A stretch of DNA of 64,000 bases. Source: Isurus oxyrinchus. Taxonomy: Eukaryota. Below the pieces are notes generated by a model. It was not told where the DNA came from and did not search any database. It worked only from the letters and a program-made list of their open reading frames with translations. Positions 12,737 to 55,403 of this stretch are shown here, in pieces. The DNA lies in the NCBI GenBank assembly GCA_026770705.1, contig JANJGN010000210.1, positions 496,001 to 560,000 of the forward strand. Direction: 5' to 3'. How positions within the stretch are numbered: position 1 is the stretch's first letter; each line of letters begins with the position of its first letter. The position numbers and the translations under genes are program-made.

Positions 12737-12827
12737 TGCCGCTCACTGGGGCCGGAATCCAACAGTCCGGGAGCTGGTTTGTTCACTAAGTTCTGGACAG
12801 AACCATTTTCCCCAAATGACCAGAAGG

Positions 12828-12873
12828 ATGAGGTCGGCGATTTCTCTCAGTTTGTTGCTGACTTTCTTATCCC
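12828..12873 (+). CDS. IGHV: IgM heavy-chain leader exon
   Basis: MRSAISLSLLLTFLS(R), phase-1 donor gtgagt at 12874; in-frame upstream ATG at 12816. Confidence 0.95.
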
Positions 12874-13001
12874 GTGAGTAGTTTTGATTGTCCAAGTCTC
12901 TCACTGTTATTGTCTCAGTGTTAGTCTCTCACTGGAATGTTACAGAGTCAGAAATCATTTCACCAGGATTAATCCTCGGGGTTTTTGATATATTTTTACA
13001 G

Positions 13002-13306
13002 GTGTCCTGTCGGAGGTTGTGTTGACTCAGCCAGAGGCAGAGACCGGGCGTCCCGGAGGCTCCCTGAGACTGACCTGTAAAACCAGCGGCTTCGATCTTG
13101 GCAGCTACTGCATGTACTGGGTCCGACAGGTTCCCGGACAGGGGCTGGAGTGGCTGCTTTACTACTATAGTTCATTGGACAACATCTATGCCCCAGCAAT
13201 TAAGAATCGATTCACTGCGTCCAAAGACACTTCAAGGAACATCTTCTCCTTGGACATGACGAGCCTGAAGACTGAAGACACCGCCATCTATTACTGTGCA
13301 AAAGAC
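13002..13306 (+). CDS. IGHV: IgM VH exon, unrearranged, open frame
   Basis: Acceptor tttacag; (R)[30 protein letters not shown]...[12 protein letters not shown]...[10 protein letters not shown] with canonical V-set C/W/C; elasmobranch IgM VH type. Confidence 0.97.
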
Positions 13307-13345
13307 CACAGCGAGAGGGACCAGGGCTGGACCCGAACAAGAACA
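13307..13345 (+). other. VH 23-RSS
   Basis: CACAGCG + 23 bp + ACAAGAACA. Confidence 0.93.
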
Positions 13346-13706: not shown

Positions 13707-13734
13707 AGTTTTTGTGCGGGTGTATTTCACTGTG
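13707..13734 (-). other. D1 5' 12-RSS
   Basis: AGTTTTTGT + 12 bp + CACTGTG. Confidence 0.95.
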
Positions 13735-13751
13735 ATACTACAGCAGTGGGT
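13735..13751 (+). other. IGHD: DH1 segment (17 bp)
   Basis: ATACTACAGCAGTGGGT between two RSSs; frames ILQQW / YYSSG / TTAVG, all open. Confidence 0.95.
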
Positions 13752-13789
13752 CACAGTGCTGTGCACAGCGACATCCTCACACAAAAACC
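13752..13789 (+). other. D1 3' 22-RSS
   Basis: CACAGTG + 22 bp + ACAAAAACC. Confidence 0.95.
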
Positions 13790-14099: not shown

Positions 14100-14127
14100 A
14101 GTATTTGACATGGTGTGTCTCACTGTG
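14100..14127 (-). other. 12-RSS 5' of the fused D2-J segment
   Basis: AGTATTTGA + 12 bp + CACTGTG; nonamer matches consensus at 6/9. Confidence 0.8.
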
Positions 14128-14175
14128 ATATGCTGGACTACTGGGGGAAAGGGATCATGGTGACGGTGACTGCCG
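14128..14175 (+). CDS. IGHJ: JH segment, apparently germline-fused to D2
   Basis: AT ATG CTG GAC TAC TGG GGG AAA GGG ATC ATG GTG ACG GTG ACT GCC G|gtaag = MLDYWGKGIMVTVTA, WGxG motif, phase-1 donor. Confidence 0.92.
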
Positions 14176-15949
14176 GTAAGAACCACACATTTATTTAGTA
14201 ACTGTTTTATTTGAGTCTTTGCTTTTTTTGTCTATTTTAATAATTCATTCAGCCAATGAGACCTGGGTTTGGTGGATTCTGTATGCAGAATTTTTACAAT
14301 GTTTCATGTGATTCTGCTGAAATTGAGTTATATAATTCCGCTGTGTCTTGATAAAAAGGTGCTGCTGAGGGATTGAGACCCTGGTTGTTGTGATTTGGTG
14401 TTTATCTGCTGAGGATACTCTGTGGCCAGGCTACTTGAAATATCTAACGTTTGTAAAAACAGTTTGACGTTTCTGCAATGTTTAATCTCGGTGACATCTA
14501 ATCGCTGCGGGTTTTACCATCTGTTGCACAAAGGTGTTTTGCCATCTTTTGCACAAATAGGTTTGAAATCAAACCCAATATTAACAACATATGCTTAAGT
14601 TTCAGTATTAATTTATTGAACATGTTCCGCCTACCCACAATGCTGTTGACATTATTCCATATTTCTGTTTAGTTTAATTATTCCTTCATTTGGTGACGAG
14701 CGGGTTGTCTGGATTCCATATTGAGAGTTTCTTGCAATGATTACATTGGATTCTGTTGGAAGTGTTTGTAGAATTGAGCTGCTTCTCCATGAAACGGGTT
14801 TCAGCCCCCCAGTGATGTGATTTGGTGTTTTTCTGCTGAGGAGATTGTGTATCTAGGTGACTTTGAATAAGTAGAATTTATGAAATCATTTGGCGGTTCT
14901 GCATTGTTTCTGCTTTGTTTAAACTCGGTGATATTGAGCGGTTACACGTTTTGCGATTGAATCGAAGTAGCCTCCGCGTTTGTATCTGCTTGAAGCGCGA
15001 TTGTAGGCAGAAAACAAACAGGCTTCAGAAATGGGCAAAAAAACATTTAAAGATGTGTTAGAACATTTTGTCTTTATTTTAAGTGGTAATTGCAGAATAA
15101 ACTAAACCATGGATTATGACGCTCATTCTGAACATAATTCGTTACTGCAATCAGAAACTATACAATTCCCAAGTTTTCAAATTGTAGAGTAAAATTAATG
15201 CAATTCAAACAATTATAATGCAGTAATATTTCTCCATATTGACGGAACATTTTTCATATTAATCTAATTGATCATTAATCGCCTTTCACAATTCTGCTGT
15301 CTCTGCGCACAATTAACACGATTGGGAAAGTTTTTAGGATGGAAACATTTTGTGATTATGCATGAAAAAATCTCAGTAAGAATATACTGACTCTACAGAA
15401 TTGTTCAGTTTCAAAAGAGATTTTGAATTACTTTTTTTATGTCCATGATAACATTTGCATTGACTTAAAGAGGAGTTTGATATTGCAGTTTGGCAATATG
15501 GCTATTCGGTTATTACATTCTTTCTGTGAAGCCGTAACCACATTATTCCTTCAATGTCATTGGGAGTTGGCTAGCGAGAGAATTGTCACTTATCTAATTT
15601 TAAACAGTTTAGTGGGGGGGGGGGGGGGGGGGGGGTTTAATTCGCTGGCAGTAAAATAATTGTTCTTACATTTTTTGAACTGCAGGAAGGTGCAGACCGC
15701 ATATAAATAGAGACTGAGAAGTAAAAGCTTGAAACTCGAACAGATTAATTTAATGGCAAATATTAGTATTTGTTTTGAACTTAATAACAACATTCTGTCT
15801 CCCATAGCTGTGCTGTACACAGGATAGAATTATAGGAGAAGAACAGATTATATCTGAGATTCATGCATAATTCTTATTAAATATTAAATTGAAGAACAAT
15901 ATTTGCGCCCTCCATTCAGTCAAATCATGGCTGATCTACCTCGACACAC

Positions 15950-16810
15950 TCAGTGTCTTTACCACACACCCTCACTCGCTCACTCTCACTGTCACACACA
16001 CTTTCTCTCACATACATGCACACACACTCTCTCACGCAATCTCTCTGACAGACATACACTCTCTCTTTCTCTCTCTGTCACACACACACACTCACTTTCT
16101 CTCTCACACACACAAACTCCCTTTAACACGCACACACTGTCTCTCACACATTGTCTCTCTTTTTCACACACACTCTCACACAGACACATTCTCTCATACA
16201 CATACTCTCTCAACTGCGCACACACATACACACTCTCACCCTCACACATGCATGCACTCTTTCTTTCTCACACATGCACTCTCACACATGCCATTCTCTC
16301 TCTCACACACACACGCACACCCACTCTCTCTCACACATACATGCACCCTTTCTCCCACACATATACACTCTCTCAATTCTCCCCCTCTCTCACACACAGA
16401 CACATAACACTGTCTCACACACACACATCTTCATTCTCTCTCTCACGCACACAGAAACACAAACATATTCCCTTTCTCACACAGAGACACTTCTTCTCAC
16501 ACACGGACTCTCTCTCATTCTCTCTTTCTCTCTCTCTGACCCACACACTGGCCCTCTCCTTCACACACTCTCTCCCACACACACACACACACAATCGCTC
16601 TCTCTCTCTTCCATATGCTCTCTCTCTCACACACACATTTCTTTATCTCACTCTCATACTTATACTCCCTATGACACTCTCCCTCTCTCACATACACTCA
16701 CAAGCACCCACACACACACTCTCTCCCACCCACACTCTTAGTCTTTTTGTCTCTCTGTCTCTCTCTCTCTCTTTCTCACGCAGACACACACACCCATTCT
16801 CAAACACAGA
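15950..16810. repeat. CA/CT low-complexity tract in the J-C intron
   Basis: Degenerate (CA)n/(CT)n. Confidence 0.9.
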
Positions 16811-17216
16811 AATGGGCTAAAAATGTTAATTTCAGAAAGAAAACCCGCTAAGCTGCAGGCATGTTTATTGTTCCATTTCTGATGTCTTTTTGTGTAAAAT
16901 GAAATTACACAAGTGACATCACTATATATGTGGAGAATTTCCAAGTGTTGAGCCAAACACAAAGAAACAAGAAAAAGGGAAGGATGTGATGGAGACCACG
17001 GCCGCCTGGATCCCCAATACTGGTGCACACTTGGTGCAAGATGCCTGCACGGCCCATCCTGGTTTTGCTGTAACATTCCCCTCCAGCCCCCTCAGTCTGC
17101 CTATTCACGCAATGACACGGGTTTCTCAAAGAAAGGCATCAGCATTAAAGCAGCTGGCCAGCGATCTACACTGCTGCCTGACTTTACACAGCCAGTGTTA
17201 CTGAAAGCTGATCAAT

Positions 17217-17400
17217 ATGGAGAATTGGGACAAGTTCGACTGAGAGGAAGAGGAGGGGATGGAGGTGGAGGTGGAGGTGGAGACGAATGGAGGAGCCCCC
17301 AGCTCGGCTGTGGACAACAGGCAACGGAAAGCTGAGCCGGCGCAGAAAATCATCTGGAAAAACATCACCATGATGAGCCTGCAGCACCTGGGCACCCTCA
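17217..17400 (+). pseudogene. SCD: Stearoyl-CoA desaturase (SCD5-like) first-coding-exon fragment
   Basis: MENWDKFD*EEEEGMEVEVEVETNGGAPSSAVDNRQRKAEPAQKIIWKNITMMSLQHLGTL resembles the SCD motif QNIVWRNVVLMSLLHLGA; in-frame TGA at 17241; runs into a CACT repeat. Confidence 0.55.
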
Positions 17401-17409
17401 CTACCCACA

Positions 17410-17990
17410 ATCAATCACCTTCACTCACCATCACTCACTCACCCTCACTCACACTCACTCAATCACCCTCACTCAGCCACCCTCACTCACCCTCACTCAC
17501 ACTCACTCAATCATCCTCACTCACCCACCCTCACTCACTCACCATCACTCAATCTCACTCCCTCACCTATTCTCACTCAGCCTCACCAATTCACCCAGCT
17601 TCACCCACCCTCATCCACTCACCATTAATTACTTTAACCTTCACTCACTCACCCTCACTCACTCACCCTCACTCACTCACCCTCCCATCCTCACTCACGT
17701 ACCTTCAGTGACACTCAATAACTCATCCACCCGCACTCACACACCCACTCACCCTCACTCACATACTCACCCTCACATACCCACCAACCCTCACTCAGCC
17801 ACTCGACTACCCTCATTCAATCACCCACGCTCACTCACCCACATTCAGACACCCACCCACGCCCACTCAGCACCCACCCTCACTCACACCTTCACTCACC
17901 ACCCACCCTCACTCACTCAGCCACCCTACCTTGCTCTGTCACTCAGCCACCTTCACTTTGTTAAACATGCACACGCTCACTCACTCGATC
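17410..17990. repeat. (CACT/CACC)n low-complexity tract
   Basis: Repeated cactcaccctcactca. Confidence 0.9.
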
Positions 17991-18099
17991 ACTTTCCATA
18001 AATCGGTGTATAGGAGGGCGGGAACTGCGGGGAACAGAGACCTGGAAGCGAGGCCTGAGGCCTAGCAGTGCCAGAAAGTGAAACATGGCTGAAGGGAGC

Positions 18100-19570
18100 G
18101 ACGAGCTTCATTGGAAAGTGCAGGGAGGCGGGGGGGAAAGCTCGAAGAGCCTGGGGGAAAGGGCAGGGAGGCGGGGGAAATGGCAGAGAGCCGGGGGGGG
18201 TGGGGTGGTGTTGGGGGGAAAGGGTAAGGAGCCGGGGAAAAGGGCAGGGATCCAGTGGAAAGTGCTTTGGGATGGGGCAAAGGTCAGCAAGCAGGGGGAA
18301 AGCTCAGTGAGCCAGTGGAAGGCCAGAGAGGCAGAGGAGGAGGAAGGGCAGAGAGACGATGGAAAGAGCAGAGAGGTGGGGGGGGGGAAAGGGCAGAGAG
18401 GCGTGGGAAGGGCATAGAGGTGGGACGGGGAAAGGGCAGAGAGGCGGAAGGAGGAAAGGGCAGAGAGGCAGGAGGGGGAAAGGGCAGAGAGGTGGGAGGG
18501 GGAAAGGGCGGAGAGGCAGGAGGGCAAAGAGGTGGAGGGTTGACAGGGGGGAGAAGCGGGGAGTGGGATAGGCAGAGAGGTGAGGGGAAACGGCAGTGAG
18601 GTGGCAGAAGGAAAGGGCAGGAATGTGGGTGGGGGAAATAGCAGAGAGGCGGCGGGGGAAAGGGCAGAGAGGAGGGTGGGCAGAGAGGCAGGCGGAAAAG
18701 GGCGGATAGCAGGGGAGGAAGGGCAGAGAGGAGTGAGAGCAAAGATGCAGAGGGGGGAAGGACAGAGAGGTGACGGAAAGGGTAGATAGTCGACGGAAAA
18801 GGCAGCGAGCTTGGGTAAGGGCAGAGAGGCGAGGTTGTAAGGGCAGAGAGGCGGGGTGTAAGGGCAGAGAGGTGGGAGAGGGAAAGGGCACAGAGGTGGG
18901 AGTGGGAAAGGGCAGAGAGGCGGGTGGGAAAGGGCAGAGGGGTGGATGAGGGAAAGGATAGAGAGGCAGAGGAAGGAAGGGCAGAGAGGTGATTGAAACG
19001 GCAGCGAGCCAGGGGAACGGGAAAAGAGCAGTGGAAAAGGTCAGAGCTGGGTGAAAGCACAGAGCGCGGTGAAATGTGTGCAGAGACCTGGGGGAGAAAG
19101 GGCAGAGAAGTGATGGGGAAAGGGCAGAGAGGCGGCAGATGTAAAGGGCTGAGAGGTGGGAGTGGGAATGGGCCGAGAGGCAGGAGGGGGAAAGGGCACA
19201 GATGCAGGAGGGGAAAAGGGCAGAGAGATGTGTGGGAAAGGGCAGAGAGGAGGGGGAAAGGGGACAGAGACGGGAGAGGGAAAGGGGCAGAAAGACGGGG
19301 GTGAAGGGCAGAGCGGTGGGTGGGGAAGGGCAGAGCGGCACGGGGGACTGGGCAGAGAAGCAGGGGGTGGGACATGCAGAGAGCTGGGGGAAAAGTGAGC
19401 GAGCCAGTGGAAAAGGTCAGAGATCCGGGCGAAAGTGAATAGAACCGTGGAGTAAGTGCAGAGAGCTGGGGTACAAAGGGCAGAGTTGGGGGGGGGGAGG
19501 CGGGTGGGCAGGGCAGGGAGGTGGGGGTGGGGGAAGGACTGAGAGCCGGGCAAAAGCTGGGAGAGCTGGG
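18100..19570 (+). repeat. G/purine-rich degenerate tandem repeat
   Basis: Dozens of ggaaagggcagagagg units. Confidence 0.9.
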
Positions 19571-21620: not shown

Positions 21621-22179
21621 ATGTACATACGATTGGAAACTGTCGTACTTACTGTAACTGGTATTCAGTTTAGAGTTCTATGGTCATTATATAGTTACCA
21701 TTACAAAGGTACTTTCGAAGGGTTATTGCTGTTCTTTGTTTTGGGGGGACGTGGAGAGGGGAGGGGGCATCAGTCAATTTGAACAGAGCCAAATTCCAAA
21801 CTGCAATGATATAAATGACGAGACAATTTCTCTATCACCAAGTGCTATTGATTGAGAAATAAACGGTGACTGAAATAATGGGTAAAATCCTCTGCTCTTC
21901 CATTTTAATCCAATGAAAGGTCGGTCATTCAGATGACATCAAAATGTTCTCTTTTAGTAATGGGATAGAGGCGGAAAAAGAGGTGTGGGTTTCTAAAGAG
22001 GGAATCGACAGGTGAGGACCATCAAATGATGGAAATAATAAATGATCAAATGTGGACGTGGGTTTCAATTGGAATATATTAGGATATGTTTATAGTTATA
22101 GTCAAATTTTGAGTTGTTTGGTTACTTAATGATCACAAATCACAGAGTCTAACTTGTTCAATCGGCCATTCTTTCCCAG

Positions 22180-22478
22180 TGACACCGTCTTCGCCCACTC
22201 TCTACAGCCTGGTCTCCTCCTGTCAGCAACACAACACCGACGGCTCCGTCACCTACGGCTGTTTGGCGATGGACTACTCCCCAGAAATCACCAGCCTGAC
22301 CTGGAAGAAAGATGGGCAGCAGATCACCACTGGATTTAAGACTTACCCGTCAGTGAGAAACCAGAAGGGAACCTACACTCTGAGCAGCCAGTTAACCATC
22401 ACCGAGTCAGAGGGGGAATGCAGCATAATCAAGTGTGAGGTTCAACACAGCGTCTCAGACAAGACGTTGAAATGCAAT
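22180..22478 (+). CDS. IGHM: IgM CH1 exon (3' end out of phase, probable 1-nt deletion)
   Basis: Acceptor ttcccag; (V)[43 protein letters not shown]...KCEV C1-set domain; donor gtaagt at 22479 falls on a codon boundary. Confidence 0.93.
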
Positions 22479-22677
22479 GTAAGTGTTGGGGAACCTGTGA
22501 GAAACAGAAAGGCTGTGATTGACCTGTAGAGGGCCTTGGTTATAACGCATTAATAGTACTCTGCATAGTTCTGATCCCTGGAAATTCCAGGTTAGTGTCC
22601 ATGGTTAAAATATAAGAACTCATTGTATCTGTTATCAATTTCTTCTGCAAGAAATGGCTAACCTGTGTTTTTTGAAG

Positions 22678-22986
22678 GTACTGACTTACCTCCAACTGTT
22701 CTCCTCACCGTGAGTTCCCGGGAAGAAATCACAACCAACAAATTTGCAACCGCCGTCTGTTCAATCATCGATCTCCGTTCAAAGTCAATCACCGTGAAGT
22801 GGCTGAAGAATGGACAACCCATGAATTCAGGAATTGTCACCTCTCCTGTCTTTGAAGTGAACGGGAACTTCTCGGCGACCAGTTGGCTGAAAGTCTCCGC
22901 TGGGGAATGGTTCAGCGACGCAGTGTATACCTGTCAGGTCACTCACCAAGTGCTCACCCAAAGTCGAAACGCCACCAAGTGTGAGG
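22678..22986 (+). CDS. IGHM: IgM CH2 exon
   Basis: [30 protein letters not shown]...WLKNG...YTCQVTH...KCE; phase 1/1, donor gtaag at 22987. Confidence 0.95.
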
Positions 22987-23610
22987 GTAAGAAATACAAA
23001 CCGAGGAAGCAACAGATCATTCTGCTCTGTGATGTTAATCAAATCAGGAATTTATTGGAGTTAGTAAAAAGCACGGAAAAATTTCTAATTTACTTTCATG
23101 TAGTTATTGTTTAATTCCGATGTAAGTGCTGTATTCGGATTGTTCACCATTCAGGATTTTATCACATCACGTCTCTACATTGACGTCACAGAGTGATTGA
23201 GGTGAACTTGATATCAGCTTTACCCTGAGTCAGCCGATCATATTTCGAAAGGCAGAAGATGTCTGGAACCCTTCACTGGTAACAGCTTCGGGATAGAGTG
23301 TTGGAAAGTGCATCCACCCTATTTATAAAATGGCTTTCAATCCTGCATTCCAGGGCCCAGGAATTATACATTTGTATTGGGACTGGGGCACAGCAGATTC
23401 GTGAGAATGTTACTGGGGCTGAAGGACTTAAATTATGAGAACGATTTACACAGACCAAGCTGCTTTTCCATTGTGTAAAAAAAATTAAAGATGATAGTTA
23501 GGTGTTGATATGTCCAAGGTGATTTATTCTCCTCCAGGGAGTGAAGGCTGAATACTGCTGTCCTGCTCCTGAAGGTGAAACTTTGGTTGATCTTCATTTC
23601 TGTCTCACAG

Positions 23611-23922
23611 ATGATCACCACTGCCCCAACGATCCCACAATTACTCTACTGCCACCTCCAATAGAACAGGTCTTACTAGAGGCGACCGTGTCCTTAACCT
23701 GCATCGTTTCTAATGCTCCTTTTGGAGTCCTCGTGTCCTGGACACAAGAGAAGAAGCCTTTGAAATCAGAGATCGCCGTCCAACCGGAAGAGGATCCCGA
23801 CAGCGTGGTCCGCAACATAAACATCTCGACACAAGCCTGGCTGAGTGGGGTTGAGTTCAACTGTGTGGTGAGCCATCAGGATCTGCCGACTCCTTTAAGA
23901 AATTCCATCCACAAGGAACAAG
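23611..23922 (+). CDS. IGHM: IgM CH3 exon
   Basis: [36 protein letters not shown]...[14 protein letters not shown]; phase 1/1, donor gtgag at 23923. Confidence 0.95.
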
Positions 23923-24636: not shown

Positions 24637-25028
24637 TTAAAGAACCGCGGGAACCGTCCGTGTCTGTCCTCCTGCCCTCGGCAGAACATGTCTCCGCTCA
24701 GAGGTTCGTCTCCCTCAGCTGCTTAGTGACAGGTTTCTCCCCGCGAGAGATTTTCATCAAGTGGACCGTCAATGACAAGCCGGTGGCTCCCGGAAACTAC
24801 AAGAACACCGAGGTGGTGGCGGAGAACGGCAATCGCTCCTTCTTCACGTACAGCCTGTTATCCATTGCAGCGGAGGAGTGGGCCAGCGGCGCTTCTTACT
24901 CCTGTGTGGTGGGACATGAAGCGATCCCCTTGAAGATCATCAACAGAACGGTTGATAAATCCAGCGGTAAACCGAGCTTTGTAAATATTTCCCTTGCACT
25001 GATGGACACCGTTAATTCATGTCAATGA
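24637..25028 (+). CDS. IGHM: IgM CH4 exon plus secretory tailpiece
   Basis: [26 protein letters not shown]...YSCVVGHE...[22 protein letters not shown], with N-glycan sequon NIS and penultimate Cys; internal donor G|gtaaac at 24967 for the membrane form. Confidence 0.96.
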
Positions 25029-25055: not shown

Positions 25056-25071
25056 AATAAAAAATAATAAA
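25056..25071 (+). terminator. Tandem polyadenylation signals, secretory transcript
   Basis: AATAAA at 25056 and 25066. Confidence 0.85.
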
Positions 25072-27981: not shown

Positions 27982-28109
27982 ATTCCACAGACCGCATATG
28001 GATTGAAGACTCTGAGGATGATAACGGCAACATCTGGACAACCACTTCCACATTCATCATCCTCTTCTTCCTGAGCATTTTCTACAGCGCTGCCGTCACT
28101 CTGGCGAAG
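27982..28109 (+). CDS. IGHM: IgM TM1 exon
   Basis: (D)STDRIWIEDSEDDNGNIWTTTSTFIILFFLSIFYSAAVTLAK|gtgag with the antigen-receptor TM motif; second in-frame acceptor 9 nt downstream. Confidence 0.95.
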
Positions 28110-28248: not shown

Positions 28249-28257
28249 ATCAAGTGA
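28249..28257 (+). CDS. IGHM: IgM TM2 exon, coding part (IK-stop)
   Basis: ttttacag|ATC AAG TGA. Confidence 0.9.
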   Translation: MK

Positions 28258-28671: not shown

Positions 28672-28713
28672 AATAAACTTTTCTGTAAAATGTTCTCTGA
28701 AATTGTTAATAAA
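28672..28713 (+). terminator. Candidate polyadenylation signals, membrane transcript
   Basis: AATAAA at 28672 and 28708. Confidence 0.6.
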
Positions 28714-40649: not shown

Positions 40650-41562
40650 TTCGGGTGTAGGATTCGTAAGTTTGCGGATGACACAAAGATTGGCCAGGTG
40701 GTTAACAGTGAGGTTGAGTGTCTTGGGCGACAGGAAGATATAGACGGGATAGTCAAATGGGCAGCTAAGTGGCAGATGGAATTTAACCCTGAAAAGTGTG
40801 AGGTGATACACTTTGGAAGGAGTAATTTGATAAGAAAGTATTCAATGAATGGCATGACACCAGGAAGTTCTGAGGAACAAAGGGACCTCGGCGTGTGTGT
40901 CCATAGATCTCTGAAGGCGGAGGGGCATGTTAGTGACGTGGTGAAAAAGGCATATGGGACACTTGCCTTTATCAATCAAGGCATAGATTACAAAAGTAGG
41001 GAGGTCATGTTGGAGTTATATAGAACCTTGGTGAGGCCACAGGTGGAGTACTGTGTGCAGTTCTGGTCACCACATTATAGGAAGGATGTGATTGCACTGG
41101 AGGGGGAGCAGAGGAGATTCACCAGGATGTTGCCTGGGATGAAACATTTAAGTTATGAAGAGTGGTTGGATAGACTTGGATTGTTTTTATTGGAGCAGAG
41201 AAGATTGAGGGACGACCTGATCGAGGTATACAAGATTATGAGGGGCATGGACAGGGTGGATAGGGAGCAGCTGTTCCCCTTAGTTGAAGGGTCAATCATG
41301 AGGGGACACAAGTTCAAGGTGAGGGGCAGGAGGTTTGGGGGGGATGTGAGGAAAAGCTTTTTTACCCAGAGGGTGGTGACAGTCTGTAATGCGCTGCCTG
41401 GGAGGGTGGTGGAGGTGGGTTGCCTCACATCCTTTAAAAAGTACCTGGATGAGCACTTGGCACATCATAACATTCAAGGCTATTGGCCAAGTGCTGGTAA
41501 ATGGAATTAGGTAGGTAGGTCACGTGTTTCTCACTCATGCAGACTCGATGTGCTGAAAGGCC
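40650..41562 (+). mobile_element. Young 5'-truncated CR1 LINE
   Basis: Uninterrupted 287-aa ORF from KFADDTK to the C-terminus. Confidence 0.95.
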
Positions 41563-42389: not shown

Positions 42390-43500
42390 AGGGCATAAAA
42401 CAGGGAAAATTTACAGAAATGAAACTCAAATCAAACATCACGTCAAGACCTGACGGTCACTCGATTCATCAGCACCTGAATATCATCGGCCTTTGAATGC
42501 AGCAGAAGAAATTTTTGTCTGTAGGAAAAGATTTCAAACATCAGTGTGGCTGGAAAAGCACCGAGACACACACACCCAAGTGAGTGTCCCAGTGAACTGA
42601 CTGGAAAGAGCTTTAACCAGTTACAGAGCCTGAAAAAAAATCACACCATTCTCAGCGGAGAGAAAGTGTACCCCTTTTTCTGTGTGTGGACGAGACTTCA
42701 ACTGATCATTCAACCTGGAGAAGCACAAGGACACCCGCACCATGGAGAAAGCATGGAAATGTGGGGACTGTGGGAAAGGATTCAATTATCCATCCAAGCT
42801 GGAAACTCATTGACGCAGTCACACTGGGGAGAGACCGTTCCTCTGTTCTGATTGCGGGAAAGGATTCACTCAGTTATCTACCTTGTTAACACACCAGCGA
42901 GTTCACACTGGGGAGAGACCATTCACCTGCTCCGTGTGTGGGAAGGACTTTACTAAATCATCTATCCTGACTGAACACAAGCGAGTTCACACCGGGGAGA
43001 GGCCATTCAGTTGCTCTCACTGCAGGAAGAGATTTGGACGGTCATCCAATCTCACTGATCATCTCAGTGTTCACACTGGGGAGAGACCATTCACCTGCCC
43101 CGTGTGTGGGAAGGGATTCACTTGTTTAACCAACCTCACATCACACCAACTTCTTCATACTGATCAGAGACCTTTTCAATGTTCAGACTGTGATTCTGGC
43201 TTTAAAAGCACAAGGGATCTGCTGATACACCAACGCAGCCACACTGGGGAGAAGCCGTTCATCTGCTCCGAGTGTGGGAAGGGATTCACTCACGCATCCA
43301 ACCTGCTGGCACACCAGTGAGGCCACACCGGGGAGAGGCCATTCACCTGCTCCAAGGGTGGGAAGAGATTTCGTCACTCATCTGATGTTCAGAGTCATCA
43401 GCGAGTTCACATGGGGAGGATCTGTTCAGCTGCTCTGTTTGTGGGAAGGGATTCACTCACTCATCCACCCTGCTGAGATACCAGTGAGTTCACAAGTGAC
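42390..43500 (+). pseudogene. C2H2 zinc-finger pseudogene, no KRAB seen
   Basis: [32 protein letters not shown]... from 42742; tandem HTGERPF fingers; TGA at 42811 and 43318, later frameshift. Confidence 0.9.
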
Positions 43501-46299: not shown

Positions 46300-47421
46300 T
46301 CAGTGTCTCTGGAGGCTGGATGACTCAGTGAAACCCTTCCCACACACAGGGCATGTGAACCACCTCTCCCCAGTGTGAATAGTCCAGTGTCTCAGCAGGT
46401 GTTGTAAACAAGTAAATCTCTTCTTGCACACGGGGCAAAGGTACGGCCTCTCCCCAGTGTGAACATGCTCGTGTATCACAAGGTGGGACAAACGAGGGAA
46501 ACTCTTCCCACACATGGAACAGAGGAACGGCCTCTCCCCGGTGTGAACTCGCTGGTGCTTCAGCAGATAGCAGGATCGAGTGAATCCCTTCCCACACAGC
46601 GAGCAAGTGAATGGCTTCTTCTCAGTGTGCACCCACTGGTGCTTCAGCAGGTCAGCTGGCTGAACGAATCCCTTCCTACATGCGGAGGTGAACGGCCTCT
46701 CTCCAGTATGAATACTCTCGTGTGTCAAAAGGTGTGAAAATCGAGTGAATGTCTTCCCACACACAGAGCAGAGGAATGGCCTCTCCCTGGTGTGAACACG
46801 CTTGTGTGTCAGAAGGTGAATTGAATGAGTGAATGTCTTCCCACACACGGAGCAGGGGAACGGCCTCTCCCCAGTGTGAATGCACCGTTGTCTCAGCAAA
46901 TTAATGCTTCTTTTGAAGGTCTTCTCACATTCAGTACATTTAAAAGGTCTCTTTTCTGAGTGGACCAATTGGTGCTCAGTGTAGTGGAAGGACTGAGCGA
47001 ATCTCTTCCCACACTGGGAGCAGCTGAATGGCCTGTCCTTGGTGTGAACTTGCTGGTGCTCAGTGAGATGCACTGACTTGCTGAATGACTCCCCACATTG
47101 GGAGCAGCTGAACGGCCTCTCGTGTGTGTGAAGGAGCTGGTGATCCACGAGGCAGGAGGACAGCCTGAACCTCTTCCCACAGTGGGAGCAGCTGAACGGT
47201 CTCTCGTCAGTGTGAACTTGCTGGTGTTGGGCCAGTTCCTTGGAGATTTCAAAGCTTTTCTCAGAGTCAGAGTATTGAAGAGGATCCTCATAAATGTGAT
47301 CAAGCTGGTGTGCCAGCCGGTTGGATGAACACATGAATTTCTTCCCACACACTGAGCAGGTGAACGGTCTCTCGCTATTGTGAGTTCGCTGTCGTGTCAG
47401 CATGTTTACCAGCTCCATCAA
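46300..47421 (-). CDS. C2H2 multi-zinc-finger protein (~13 finger units, some degenerate), truncated by a premature stop; possibly a pseudogene
   Basis: 373-aa ORF of CxxC...HxxxH with HTGERPF linkers; acceptor tttacag near 47593. Confidence 0.8.
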   Translation of the reverse strand: MMELVNMLTRQRTHNSERPFTCSVCGKKFMCSSNRLAHQLDHIYEDPLQYSDSEKSFEISKELAQHQQVHTDERPFSCSHCGKRFRLSSCLVDHQLLHTHERPFSCSQCGESFSKSVHLTEHQQVHTKDRPFSCSQCGKRFAQSFHYTEHQLVHSEKRPFKCTECEKTFKRSINLLRQRCIHTGERPFPCSVCGKTFTHSIHLLTHKRVHTRERPFLCSVCGKTFTRFSHLLTHESIHTGERPFTSACRKGFVQPADLLKHQWVHTEKKPFTCSLCGKGFTRSCYLLKHQRVHTGERPFLCSMCGKSFPRLSHLVIHEHVHTGERPYLCPVCKKRFTCLQHLLRHWTIHTGERWFTCPVCGKGFTESSSLQRH

Positions 47422-48084
47422 TCCCTTCCTACAGGAGGAGCAGGTAAGCAGCCTCTCACCAGTTTCCAGCTGAGGCAGTCAATTAAATCCTTTCAGATGT
47501 ATGAATCTTCAGATTCCAATGAACCGATTGACCCTGTCAGACGTGAGGTTTGGTTTGCTTTATCTGACTGCAAATCCTCCTCCTCTATTATCCTGTAAAG
47601 TAAGTTACAAACAGGCCATTCAGTCTATCCAGTTTGTACTGGAGTTTCTAGTCCACACAAGTCTCCCCCATTCTGCCAATCCTATCTCAGGCTTTCAGCT
47701 CATCTTTCTAATCCCTTTTCTCCCATGTTCTCACCTAGTTTCCTTCTAAAAATATCTGTTATTTTTCTTGACCACATCCAGTAGTGCTGAGTTCCACATT
47801 TTCATAGCTGTCTGAGGAACCATATATCTCCTGTGTTCTTCTTGGATTTATTTGTGTCTATTGTGTATTCATGACCCCCAGTATTGGTTAGACCTGCAAG
47901 TGGAAACATTCTGTCCACGTCTACCTGCCCAACACAATCAGAATTTAAAGACCTAGTTGACAAACATATCTCTCGATTTGAGTTTGCTGTGTGTAAATCT
48001 TTCCCATTTAACCCCCGGAAAGGGAGTTTGCAAAATCCATCCCTGTCAGTCCAGGATGGGAATTCACCACATTCTCTCAGGTAA

Positions 48085-51364: not shown

Positions 51365-52835
51365 CACAGAATCATACAGTGCAGAAGAGGCCCTTTGGCC
51401 TATCAAGTCTGCACCGACAAGTGAGAAACACCTGACCTACCTACCTAATCCCATTTATCAGCACTTGGCCCATTGCTTTGAATGTTATGACGTGCCAAGT
51501 GCTCATCCGGGTACTTTTTAAAGGATGTTAGGCAACCTGCCTCCACCACCCTCCCAGGCAACGCATTCCAGACCGTCACCACCCTCTGGGTAAAAATGTT
51601 TTTCTTCACATTCCCCCTAGACCTCCTGCCCCTCACCTTGAACTTATGTCCCCTCGTGACTGACCCTTGAACTAAGGGGAACAGCTGCTCCCTATCCACC
51701 CTGTCCGTGCCCGTCATAATCTTGTACATTCGATAAGGTGGCCCCTCAGTCTTCTCTGCTCCAACGAAAACAACCCAAGTCTATCCAACCTCTCTTCATA
51801 ACTTAAATGTTTCATCATAGGCAACATCCTGGTGAATCTCTTCTGCACCCCGTCCAGTGCGATCAGATCCTTCCTATAATGTGGCAACCAGAACTGCACA
51901 CAGCTGTGGCCTCACTAAGGTTCTATACAACTCCAACATGACCTCCCTACTTTTGTAATCTATGCCTCGATTGATGAAGGCAAGCGTCCCATATGCCTTT
52001 TTCACCATCCCACTAACATGCCCCTGTGCCTTCAAAGATCTATGGACACACATGCCAAGGTCCCTTTGTTCCTCAGAACTTCCTAGTGTGACGAAGTTCA
52101 TTGAATACTTCTTTGTGAAATTACTCCTTCCAAAGTGTATCACCTCGCACTTTTCAGGGTTAAATTCCATCTGCCACTTATCTGCCCATTTGACCATCCC
52201 GTCTATATCTTCCTGTAGTCCAAGACACTCAACCTCACTTTTAACCACCCAGCCAATCTTTGTGTCATCCACAAACTTACTAAACTTACCCCCTACATAG
52301 TCATCTATGTCATTTATATAAATCATGAATAATAGGGGACCCAGCACAGATCCCTGTGGTACGCCACTGGACCTTGACTTCCAGTCACTAAAGCATCCTT
52401 CTGTCATCACCCTTTGTCTTCTACAACTAAGCCAATTTTGAATCCACCTTATCAAATTACCCTGTATCCTATGTGTATTTGCCTTCTTTATAAGTCTCCC
52501 ATGTGGAACCTTGTCAAAGGTGTTGCTGAAATCCATATAAACTGCATCAACTACACTACCCTCATTGACACACCTGGACACCTCCTCAAAAAATTCAATC
52601 AAATTTGTTTGACATGACGTCCCTCTGACAAAGCCATGCTAACTATCCCTGATCAAACCTTGCTTCTCCACGTAGAGATAGGCACTCTCCTCCAGAGCTT
52701 TCTCCAATAGTTTCCCTACCACTGACGTGATATTCACTAGCCTGTAGTTCCCTGGCTTATCTCTACAACCCTTCTTATATAGCAGAACCACATTAGCTGT
52801 TCTCCAGTCCTCTGGCACCACCCCCGTGGCCATAC
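51365..52835 (-). mobile_element. Young CR1 LINE, RT domain to 3' end
   Basis: ORF 51874-52602 GVPQGSVLGPLLF...KFVDDTK; same subfamily as 40650-41562. Confidence 0.95.
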
Positions 52836-55218: not shown

Positions 55219-55403
55219 NNNNNNNNNNNNNNNNNNNNNNNNNNNNNNNNNNNNNNNNNNNNNNNNNNNNNNNNNNNNNNNNNNNNNNNNNNNNNNNNNN
55301 NNNNNNNNNNNNNNNNNNNNNNNNNNNNNNNNNNNNNNNNNNNNNNNNNNNNNNNNNNNNNNNNNNNNNNNNNNNNNNNNNNNNNNNNNNNNNNNNNNNN
55401 NNN
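55219..55403. other. Assembly gap (185 N)
   Basis: Run of N. Confidence 1.

What the first reader, a model, noticed from the sequence alone, without database searches (positions are those of the whole stretch)
22458..22713. Hidden frameshift: CH1 donor is phase 0, CH2 acceptor is phase 1
CH1 ends GAC AAG ACG TTG AAA TGC AAT|gtaagt. Adding one base near 22464 restores D-K-x-V-E-M-Q-C|T-D-L-P-P and the normal phase-1 junction. As assembled, CH1-CH2 splicing gives [12 protein letters not shown] (TGA 22711), an Fd-like VH-CH1 product and likely NMD target. All other exons, splice sites, RSS heptamers and polyA signals look intact, so this is a recent inactivation, an assembly indel, or something bypassed by splicing. 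The only phase-1 rescue donor I found nearby (22483, gtgttg) is weak.
Basis: seen in the sequence. Interest (0 to 1): 0.75.

Follow-up and report, generated by a model that had tools for sequence, protein, structure and literature searches.

The report
Broken shark IgM gene copy
One of a shark's many antibody (IgM) heavy-chain gene copies lacks a single base and so cannot encode a full chain as assembled; it is likely an ordinary, recently dead copy (or an assembly slip), and its one unusual trait is that two of its gene segments appear to be already fused.

Summary
CH1 (22180-22478) is 299 nt, so CH1-CH2 splicing reads [12 protein letters not shown] (TGA 22711). Homologous proteins and contigs from three public runs place the missing base exactly: the G of a Ser codon, after 22464, outside any homopolymer. 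No listed contig carries the window's form. Contigs drop rare copies of a multi-copy family and no raw reads or own genome were available, so a real deletion versus an assembly slip stays open. I favour a real, recent inactivation (about 0.62 vs 0.27): non-homopolymer site, no excess of indels in the window's repeats, and 6 of 7 window-specific exon changes are amino-acid changing. Splice bypass has no support. IgM pseudogenes and partly germline-joined clusters are both known in sharks. I found the V-D-DJ layout in print only as a somatic intermediate. Ordinary; low interest.

The parts
12828..12873 (+). Leader exon (in-frame upstream ATG at 12816), GT donor at 12874
13002..13306 (+). VH exon, open frame, conventional FR2 ([13 protein letters not shown]); departs at 1 of 45 conserved columns
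   Evidence: Pfam V-set 6.5e-18
13307..13345 (+). V 3' RSS, 23-nt spacer
13707..13789 (+). D1 (13735-13751) with 5' 12-spacer RSS (13707-13734) and 3' 22-spacer RSS (13752-13789)
14100..14127 (+). D-type 5' RSS, 12-nt spacer; 23 of 30 bases alike to the D1 5' RSS; no nonamer at 21-24 nt spacing
14128..14175 (+). Fused D2-J: D2 remnant (about 14128-14137) joined without N bases to J (MLDYWGKGIMVTVTA); GT donor at 14176
   Evidence: D2 identity inferred
22180..22478 (+). C-mu-1 exon, 299 nt, one base short
22464..22465 (+). Site of the 1-nt deletion (related copies have a G between these two bases)
   Evidence: tables 4 and 7
22678..22986 (+). C-mu-2 exon, own frame open; out-of-frame TGA at 22711-22713
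23611..23922 (+). C-mu-3 exon, open
24637..25028 (+). C-mu-4 plus secretory tailpiece (..[20 protein letters not shown]); AATAAA at 25056 and 25066
27982..28109 (+). TM1 exon
28249..28257 (+). TM2 exon (ends in TGA); AATAAA at 28672 and 28708

Best explanation
This shark IgM heavy-chain cluster has a C-mu-1 exon one base short, which is likely a real and recent loss-of-function deletion in one copy of a large multi-copy family, so that its transcripts would be destroyed by nonsense-mediated decay and the copy is likely a young pseudogene or null allele. Shown: the missing base, the frameshift and the stop about 270 nt before the CH2-CH3 junction. Inferred: V-D1-D2J could still be rearranged by RAG (23/12, then 22/12 RSS), be transcribed and splice normally. 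The premature stop, with two or more junctions downstream, would trigger NMD, and any VH-CH1 stub has a scrambled last strand. Other copies supply IgM, so the loss would cost little. Separately, D2 and J are fused, probably by RAG acting in a germ cell of an ancestor.
For: The deletion removes the G of an AGC codon, not a base of a homopolymer run. Four repeat pairs of at least 85% identity in the window show 172 substitutions but only 7 gaps (4 single-base) in 1,529 columns, so there is no sign of a noisy assembly. It is the only frameshift in 1,848 coding nt. Of the exon substitutions shown where at least 75% of related depth differs in every covering run, 6 of 7 change the amino acid, including F>L and P>S at columns conserved in 14/15 and 13/15 homologues; a G>V next to the deletion appears in the loose ends. 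P(6 of 7) is 0.26-0.34 under neutrality and 0.05-0.11 at omega 0.4. Contig depths of hundreds to thousands over the exons, beside contigs at 8-50, indicate many near-identical copies. Nurse shark has 9-12 functional IgM genes plus 3 pseudogenes (PMC5192425 section 6.1; PMC2435157 passages). 50-95% of PTC-bearing IgH mRNA is degraded in mouse B cells (PMC7072976 passages).
Against: No listed contig in any of the 4 runs shows the window's deleted form. At protein level the window departs at only 10 of 218 conserved columns, mid-range among homologues (0-21%; nurse-shark P0007 4.1%, Triakis P0002 6.0%), so there is no broad decay. The 6:1 count rests on 40 of 107 rows shown and is biased towards non-synonymous sites. 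It separates neutrality from omega 0.6 only about two-fold. The repeat-pair test cannot exclude one error per few kb, and the window has a 185-N gap.
Confidence: 0.62

Rival explanations
1. Assembly or consensus error: the cluster is a functional IgM gene and one base was dropped, as happens when near-identical paralogues are polished.
For: All else in the coding sequence is open and conserved. Every gapped contig listed at the site has the G (X6 494.7/494.7, X15 209.4/209.4, X4 17031/22241 of depth). One run (X15, guessed RNA) holds a contig spliced from a CH2 end like the window's into a CH3 start identical to the window's over 8 letters (table 7).
Against: The site is not a homopolymer; the window's repeats show few indels; private changes lean non-synonymous. 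No run holds half of the stretch's words (0 of 24, best 0.49), so none is shown to contain this very copy and their G says little about it.
Confidence: 0.27
2. The deletion is real but the cluster still makes protein by skipping CH1 (J spliced to CH2, in frame), giving a light-chain-free VH-CH2-CH3-CH4 chain, possibly enriched by nonsense-associated altered splicing.
For: The J donor and CH2 acceptor are both phase 1 and the skip product is open. CH1-less chains escape BiP and are secreted, and J-to-hinge transcripts occur in normal mice (PMC2150980 passages). NAS is described for IgH in plasma cells (PMC7072976 passages).
Against: CH1 acceptor and donor are normal. VH keeps the hydrophobic light-chain face (hallmark positions recalled). 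CH2 itself carries several non-conservative changes. No J-to-CH2 loose end is among the 21 of 39 loose ends shown, though those runs may not hold this copy.
Confidence: 0.05
3. The deletion is real and a stable VH-CH1 (Fd) stub pairs with light chain and is secreted as a natural Fab; or the weak phase-1 donor at 22435 restores frame at the cost of the end of CH1.
For: The shift falls at the very end of CH1, after both core cysteines; the donor at 22435 leaves the frame open.
Against: The stop lies far upstream of later junctions (NMD rule, PMC7072976). The AlphaFold model of the shifted CH1 has no last strand (residues 91-100 pLDDT 41), whereas an intact catshark CH1 folded the same way has one (E92-98, pLDDT 76); this is weak, since the shifted tail lacks alignment support. 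22435 matches only 4 of 9 consensus bases.
Confidence: 0.04

Closest known systems
Elasmobranch IgM heavy-chain cluster (VH-D1-D2-JH-C-mu; nurse shark Groups 1-5, horn shark, catshark, Triakis)
   Same: Leader, VH, D1, J, four C1-set exons, secretory tail and TM exons in one cluster; CH1 63-88% identical to 19 homologues; segments about 400 nt apart, J about 8 kb from CH1
   Different: CH1 is one base short; D2 is not free but fused to J
Nurse shark IgM pseudogenes (Groups 6-8, G2C; PMC2435157)
   Same: A dead or dying copy among many IgM clusters
   Different: Their lesions were not described in the passages read; here the lesion is a single C-region base with V and the remaining RSS intact
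Partly germline-joined shark IgH clusters (VD-J, VD-DJ, VDJ; PMC5192425) and germline-joined L chains (PMC2193156)
   Same: Segments fused with trimming and no N bases
   Different: Only D2-J is fused while V and D1 stay split (V-D-DJ); the papers read give this layout only as an infrequent somatic intermediate (PMC2435157)
IgM1gj; camelid heavy-chain-only IgG
   Same: Shortened or non-standard heavy chains from a conventional gene
   Different: IgM1gj lacks C-mu-2 and is fully VDJ-joined; camelid chains lack CH1 and use VHH genes. Neither applies here

Membership tests
Elasmobranch IgM heavy-chain cluster | One VH, D segments, one JH and C-mu exons in one cluster | tested here: met
Elasmobranch IgM heavy-chain cluster | Four C1-set domains, mu-type secretory tail and TM exons | tested here: met
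   CH4 plus tail 91% identical to Triakis IgM
Elasmobranch IgM heavy-chain cluster | Two free D segments, each between two RSS (canonical split form) | tested here: not met
   only D1 is free; the second 12-RSS leads straight into J
Functional IgM gene | Open frame from V through CH4 | tested here: not met
   (as assembled)
IgM pseudogene | Disabling lesion present in the organism's DNA, not only in the assembly | tested here: inconclusive
   contigs only, this copy not shown to be in the runs
IgM pseudogene | Relaxed selection | tested here: inconclusive
   6 of 7 non-synonymous, but 10 of 218 conserved columns is normal
Partly germline-joined IgH cluster | Coding joint with loss of both facing RSS and the interval, few or no N bases | tested here: met
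   D2 identity via (index counts only)
Partly germline-joined IgH cluster | Joint present in non-lymphoid DNA and inherited | not testable with these tools
   no own genome; the single read-laying run covered 22100-23050 only; metagenome scan empty
IgM1gj | C-mu-2 absent and VDJ fully joined | tested here: not met
   definition from PMC4279169
Heavy-chain-only antibody gene (camelid-like) | CH1 excluded by damaged splice site or deletion | tested here: not met
   acceptor and donor normal (camelid donor mutation is recalled knowledge)
Heavy-chain-only antibody gene (camelid-like) | CH1-less transcript or protein | not testable with these tools
   one search reported no joints at all, not even normal CH1-CH2, so it had no power

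The most novel reading that the evidence does not exclude
A germline V-D1-D2J cluster with a dead CH1 but intact V, D1 and RSS is still used. It either serves as a dedicated V-region donor that becomes productive only after inter-cluster switching onto another cluster's C-mu, or it yields a light-chain-free IgM chain by skipping CH1. It would then be a snapshot of how heavy-chain-only isotypes or V-only clusters arise in sharks, with a TCR-beta-like 23/12-22/12 RSS layout made by one germline RAG event.
Probability: 0.06. Interest if true: 0.6.

Novelty: new member of a known kind. Interest (0 to 1): 0.18.

Why it matters
If real, it is one more case of birth-and-death among shark IgM clusters, and a caution for annotators: the break is visible only from exon phase, since each exon looks open by itself. 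The fused D2-J matters slightly more. A germline V-D-DJ cluster would add a layout to the VD-J, VD-DJ and VDJ types listed in the review read, and record a single RAG event in germ cells. The cluster's diagnostic bases would also make switching between clusters easy to test, because any productive transcript with this V-J must have switched or skipped CH1.

Tried and rejected
Own genome: none held, so paralogues could not be counted or compared as DNA. Direct read test: 4 of 24 listed runs were laid, all contigs; X3 and X6 were only about half read, and X3 has no cover at 22464. Absence of the deleted form is no evidence, because contigs drop rare copies. The joints table was empty even for normal splicing. 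Metagenome pattern scans for the CH1 end (either form) and for the D2 RSS: 0 matches each. Missing G at the donor instead of at 22464: rejected by homologues and contigs. Compensating change at the CH2 5' end: rejected, variants are +6/+9 nt. Phase-0 acceptor at 22617: in frame, but the sequence has a stop at 22659. J with an ordinary 22/23-RSS: rejected, 6-7 of 9 nonamer mismatches. Broad protein decay: not seen (its V part used a wrong frame and was redone). Earlier findings of this scan: none. The switching paper PMC3360817 is not held, and only abstract and references of PMC2191167 could be read, with no supplements, so its D-segment table was not seen. No complex prediction was run.

Full report
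What the window is. The region 12.8-28.3 kb is one shark IgM heavy-chain cluster on the + strand: leader 12828-12873, VH 13002-13306, D1 13735-13751, J ending 14175, C-mu-1 to -4 with secretory tail, and two TM exons. Pfam gives V-set and four C1-set domains. CH1 is 63-88% identical to 19 elasmobranch heavy chains; CH4 plus tail is 91% identical to Triakis IgM. There is no second Ig gene in the window. No whole genome is held.

The observation. CH1 is 299 nt with a phase-1 start, so it ends in phase 0; CH2 is 309 nt, phase 1 at both ends. Spliced as assembled, the product ends [18 protein letters not shown] at 22711-22713, about 270 nt before the CH2-CH3 junction. Of 18 homologue junctions printed (19 hits; P0004 escaped the pattern but reads DKSIGMEC), 14 read K-S-x-x-M-x-C and all have the Met, which the window shows only in the shifted frame. 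The finding is real in the sequence.

Where the base is missing. I laid 4 of 24 listed runs on 22100-23050. A G is put in behind 22464 in X6 (1 contig, all depth), X15 (2 contigs, all depth) and X4 (2 contigs, 17031 of 22241 depth; a further X4 loose end at 22464 also begins with that G, but I could not assign the remainder contig by contig). X3 has no cover there. Loose ends show related copies reading Lys-Ser-Ile/Val-Glu-Met-Gln-Cys and splicing at the same donor into a phase-1 acceptor. So the lost base is the G of a Ser codon, not part of a homopolymer. The tables were cut: 40 of 107 substitution rows, 12 of 19 indel rows, 21 of 39 loose ends and 32 of 711 pieces were shown.

Real or assembly error. 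The direct test could not be made. All runs are contigs, which drop rare variants, and no run holds half of the stretch's words (best 0.49). Depths of hundreds to thousands over the exons point to many near-identical copies that would mask a single-copy variant (inference). Indirect evidence leans towards a real lesion. The site is not a homopolymer. Four repeat pairs of at least 85% identity show 172 substitutions and only 7 gaps in 1,529 columns. Six of seven window-specific exon substitutions among the shown rows are non-synonymous, with probability 0.26-0.34 under neutrality, 0.13-0.21 at omega 0.6 and 0.05-0.11 at omega 0.4. Against it: the protein departs at only 10 of 218 conserved C-region columns and 1 of 45 in V, which is normal; the substitution sample is cut and biased; and a single error in 1,848 coding nt is not excluded. 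I put real at about 0.7 in all (0.62 simply dead) and error at 0.27.

Bypass. The CH1 donor matches 7 of 9 consensus bases, like the J donor. Phase-1 GTs lie at 22435 (4/9, frame open, removes the end of CH1), 22483 (3/9) and 22591 (8/9, behind a stop); the one phase-0 acceptor, 22617, runs into a stop. J-to-CH2 skipping would be in frame, and CH1-less chains can be secreted (PMC2150980, passages), but nothing in the sequence favours skipping and VH has a conventional light-chain face. One search reported no joints at all, so it could not test this. AlphaFold gives the shifted CH1 no last strand, while an intact catshark CH1 folded alike has one; this is weak evidence against a stable Fd stub. 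NMD removes 50-95% of PTC-bearing IgH mRNA in mouse B cells (PMC7072976, passages); that it does so in sharks is inferred.

Canonical clusters have VH, two D and JH about 400 nt apart (PMC2435157, passages). Here V to J spans only two such intervals. The RSS before J has a 12-nt spacer, is 23 of 30 bases alike to the 5' RSS of D1, and has no nonamer at 21-24 nt. The ten bases behind it differ at one position from the start of a 13-letter string that occurs twice in the indexed text of the horn-shark IgH paper PMC2191167 (string guessed from recall as D2; index counts, abstract and references only, body and supplements not seen). They run directly into J with a 2-4 base overlap and no N bases. 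This is a D2-J coding joint. Germline joints show little TdT activity (PMC2193156, passages), and bulk DNA is unlikely to be dominated by an infrequent somatic intermediate, so I rate a germline join at about 0.85. It could not be tested in other DNA. The layout still satisfies the 12/23 rule (V23-12D1 22-12D2J), so rearrangement should remain possible (inference).

Comparison with what is known. Nurse shark has 9-12 functional IgM genes and three pseudogenes, and other species up to 200 clusters, many partly (VD-J, VD-DJ) or fully joined in the germline (PMC5192425, section 6.1 and passages). V regions can be expressed with another cluster's C region (PMC4279169, section 2 part 2 and passages). 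V-D-DJ appears in PMC2435157 as an infrequent somatic intermediate (section 10 and passages). Searches for V-D-DJ and VD-DJ with shark and germline returned only these papers, and searches for shark IgM pseudogenes in recent assemblies returned nothing relevant; most of the primary shark literature is not in this library. The gene is not IgM1gj and not a camelid-type gene by their defining features.

Verdict. A correctly spotted frameshift in one copy of a multi-copy IgM family: most likely a young pseudogene, possibly an assembly slip. The fused D2-J is a small real extra. New member of a known kind; interest 0.18.

Noticed in passing
window 14100-14175: D2 is fused to J behind a D-type 12-spacer RSS, with no N bases: a V-D1-D2J cluster, probably germline-joined.
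   Followed up: partly
window 14130-14175: J reads WGKGI where homologues read WGxGT; a related J in run X15 has ACC (Thr) at this codon (loose end at 22181).
   Followed up: partly
window 13013-13303: VH has an extra Cys just before the first framework-2 Trp (SYCMYW), not seen in the 13 homologues aligned.
   Followed up: no
window 22851-22853: CH2 has Phe where 13 of 15 homologues have a non-core Cys (PVFEVNG vs PxCEVNG); one catshark homologue also has Phe.
   Followed up: no
window 42814-43317 (+) and 46303-47478 (-): Two oppositely oriented C2H2 zinc-finger arrays (168 and 392 aa open frames) about 15 kb downstream of the IgM cluster.
   Followed up: no
window 15950-19550: The J-CH1 intron holds CA/CT-rich repeats followed by about 1.4 kb of strongly purine-skewed GGGCAGAGAGG-like repeats (GC skew +0.51); sharks are said to lack switch regions, so a G-rich skewed tract here may deserve a look in other clusters.
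   Followed up: no
window 40653-41562 and 51389-52293: Inverted pair of LINE-like copies, 89% identical over 914 columns; used only as an assembly-noise check.
   Followed up: partly
window 55219-55403: Assembly gap of 185 N.
   Followed up: no
proteins P0008, P0017: Genome-derived models from Mustelus asterias and Scyliorhinus torazame read TAVG (the D1 frame of this window) inside a ready-made CDR3; they may be germline-joined clusters or annotation joins.
   Followed up: no
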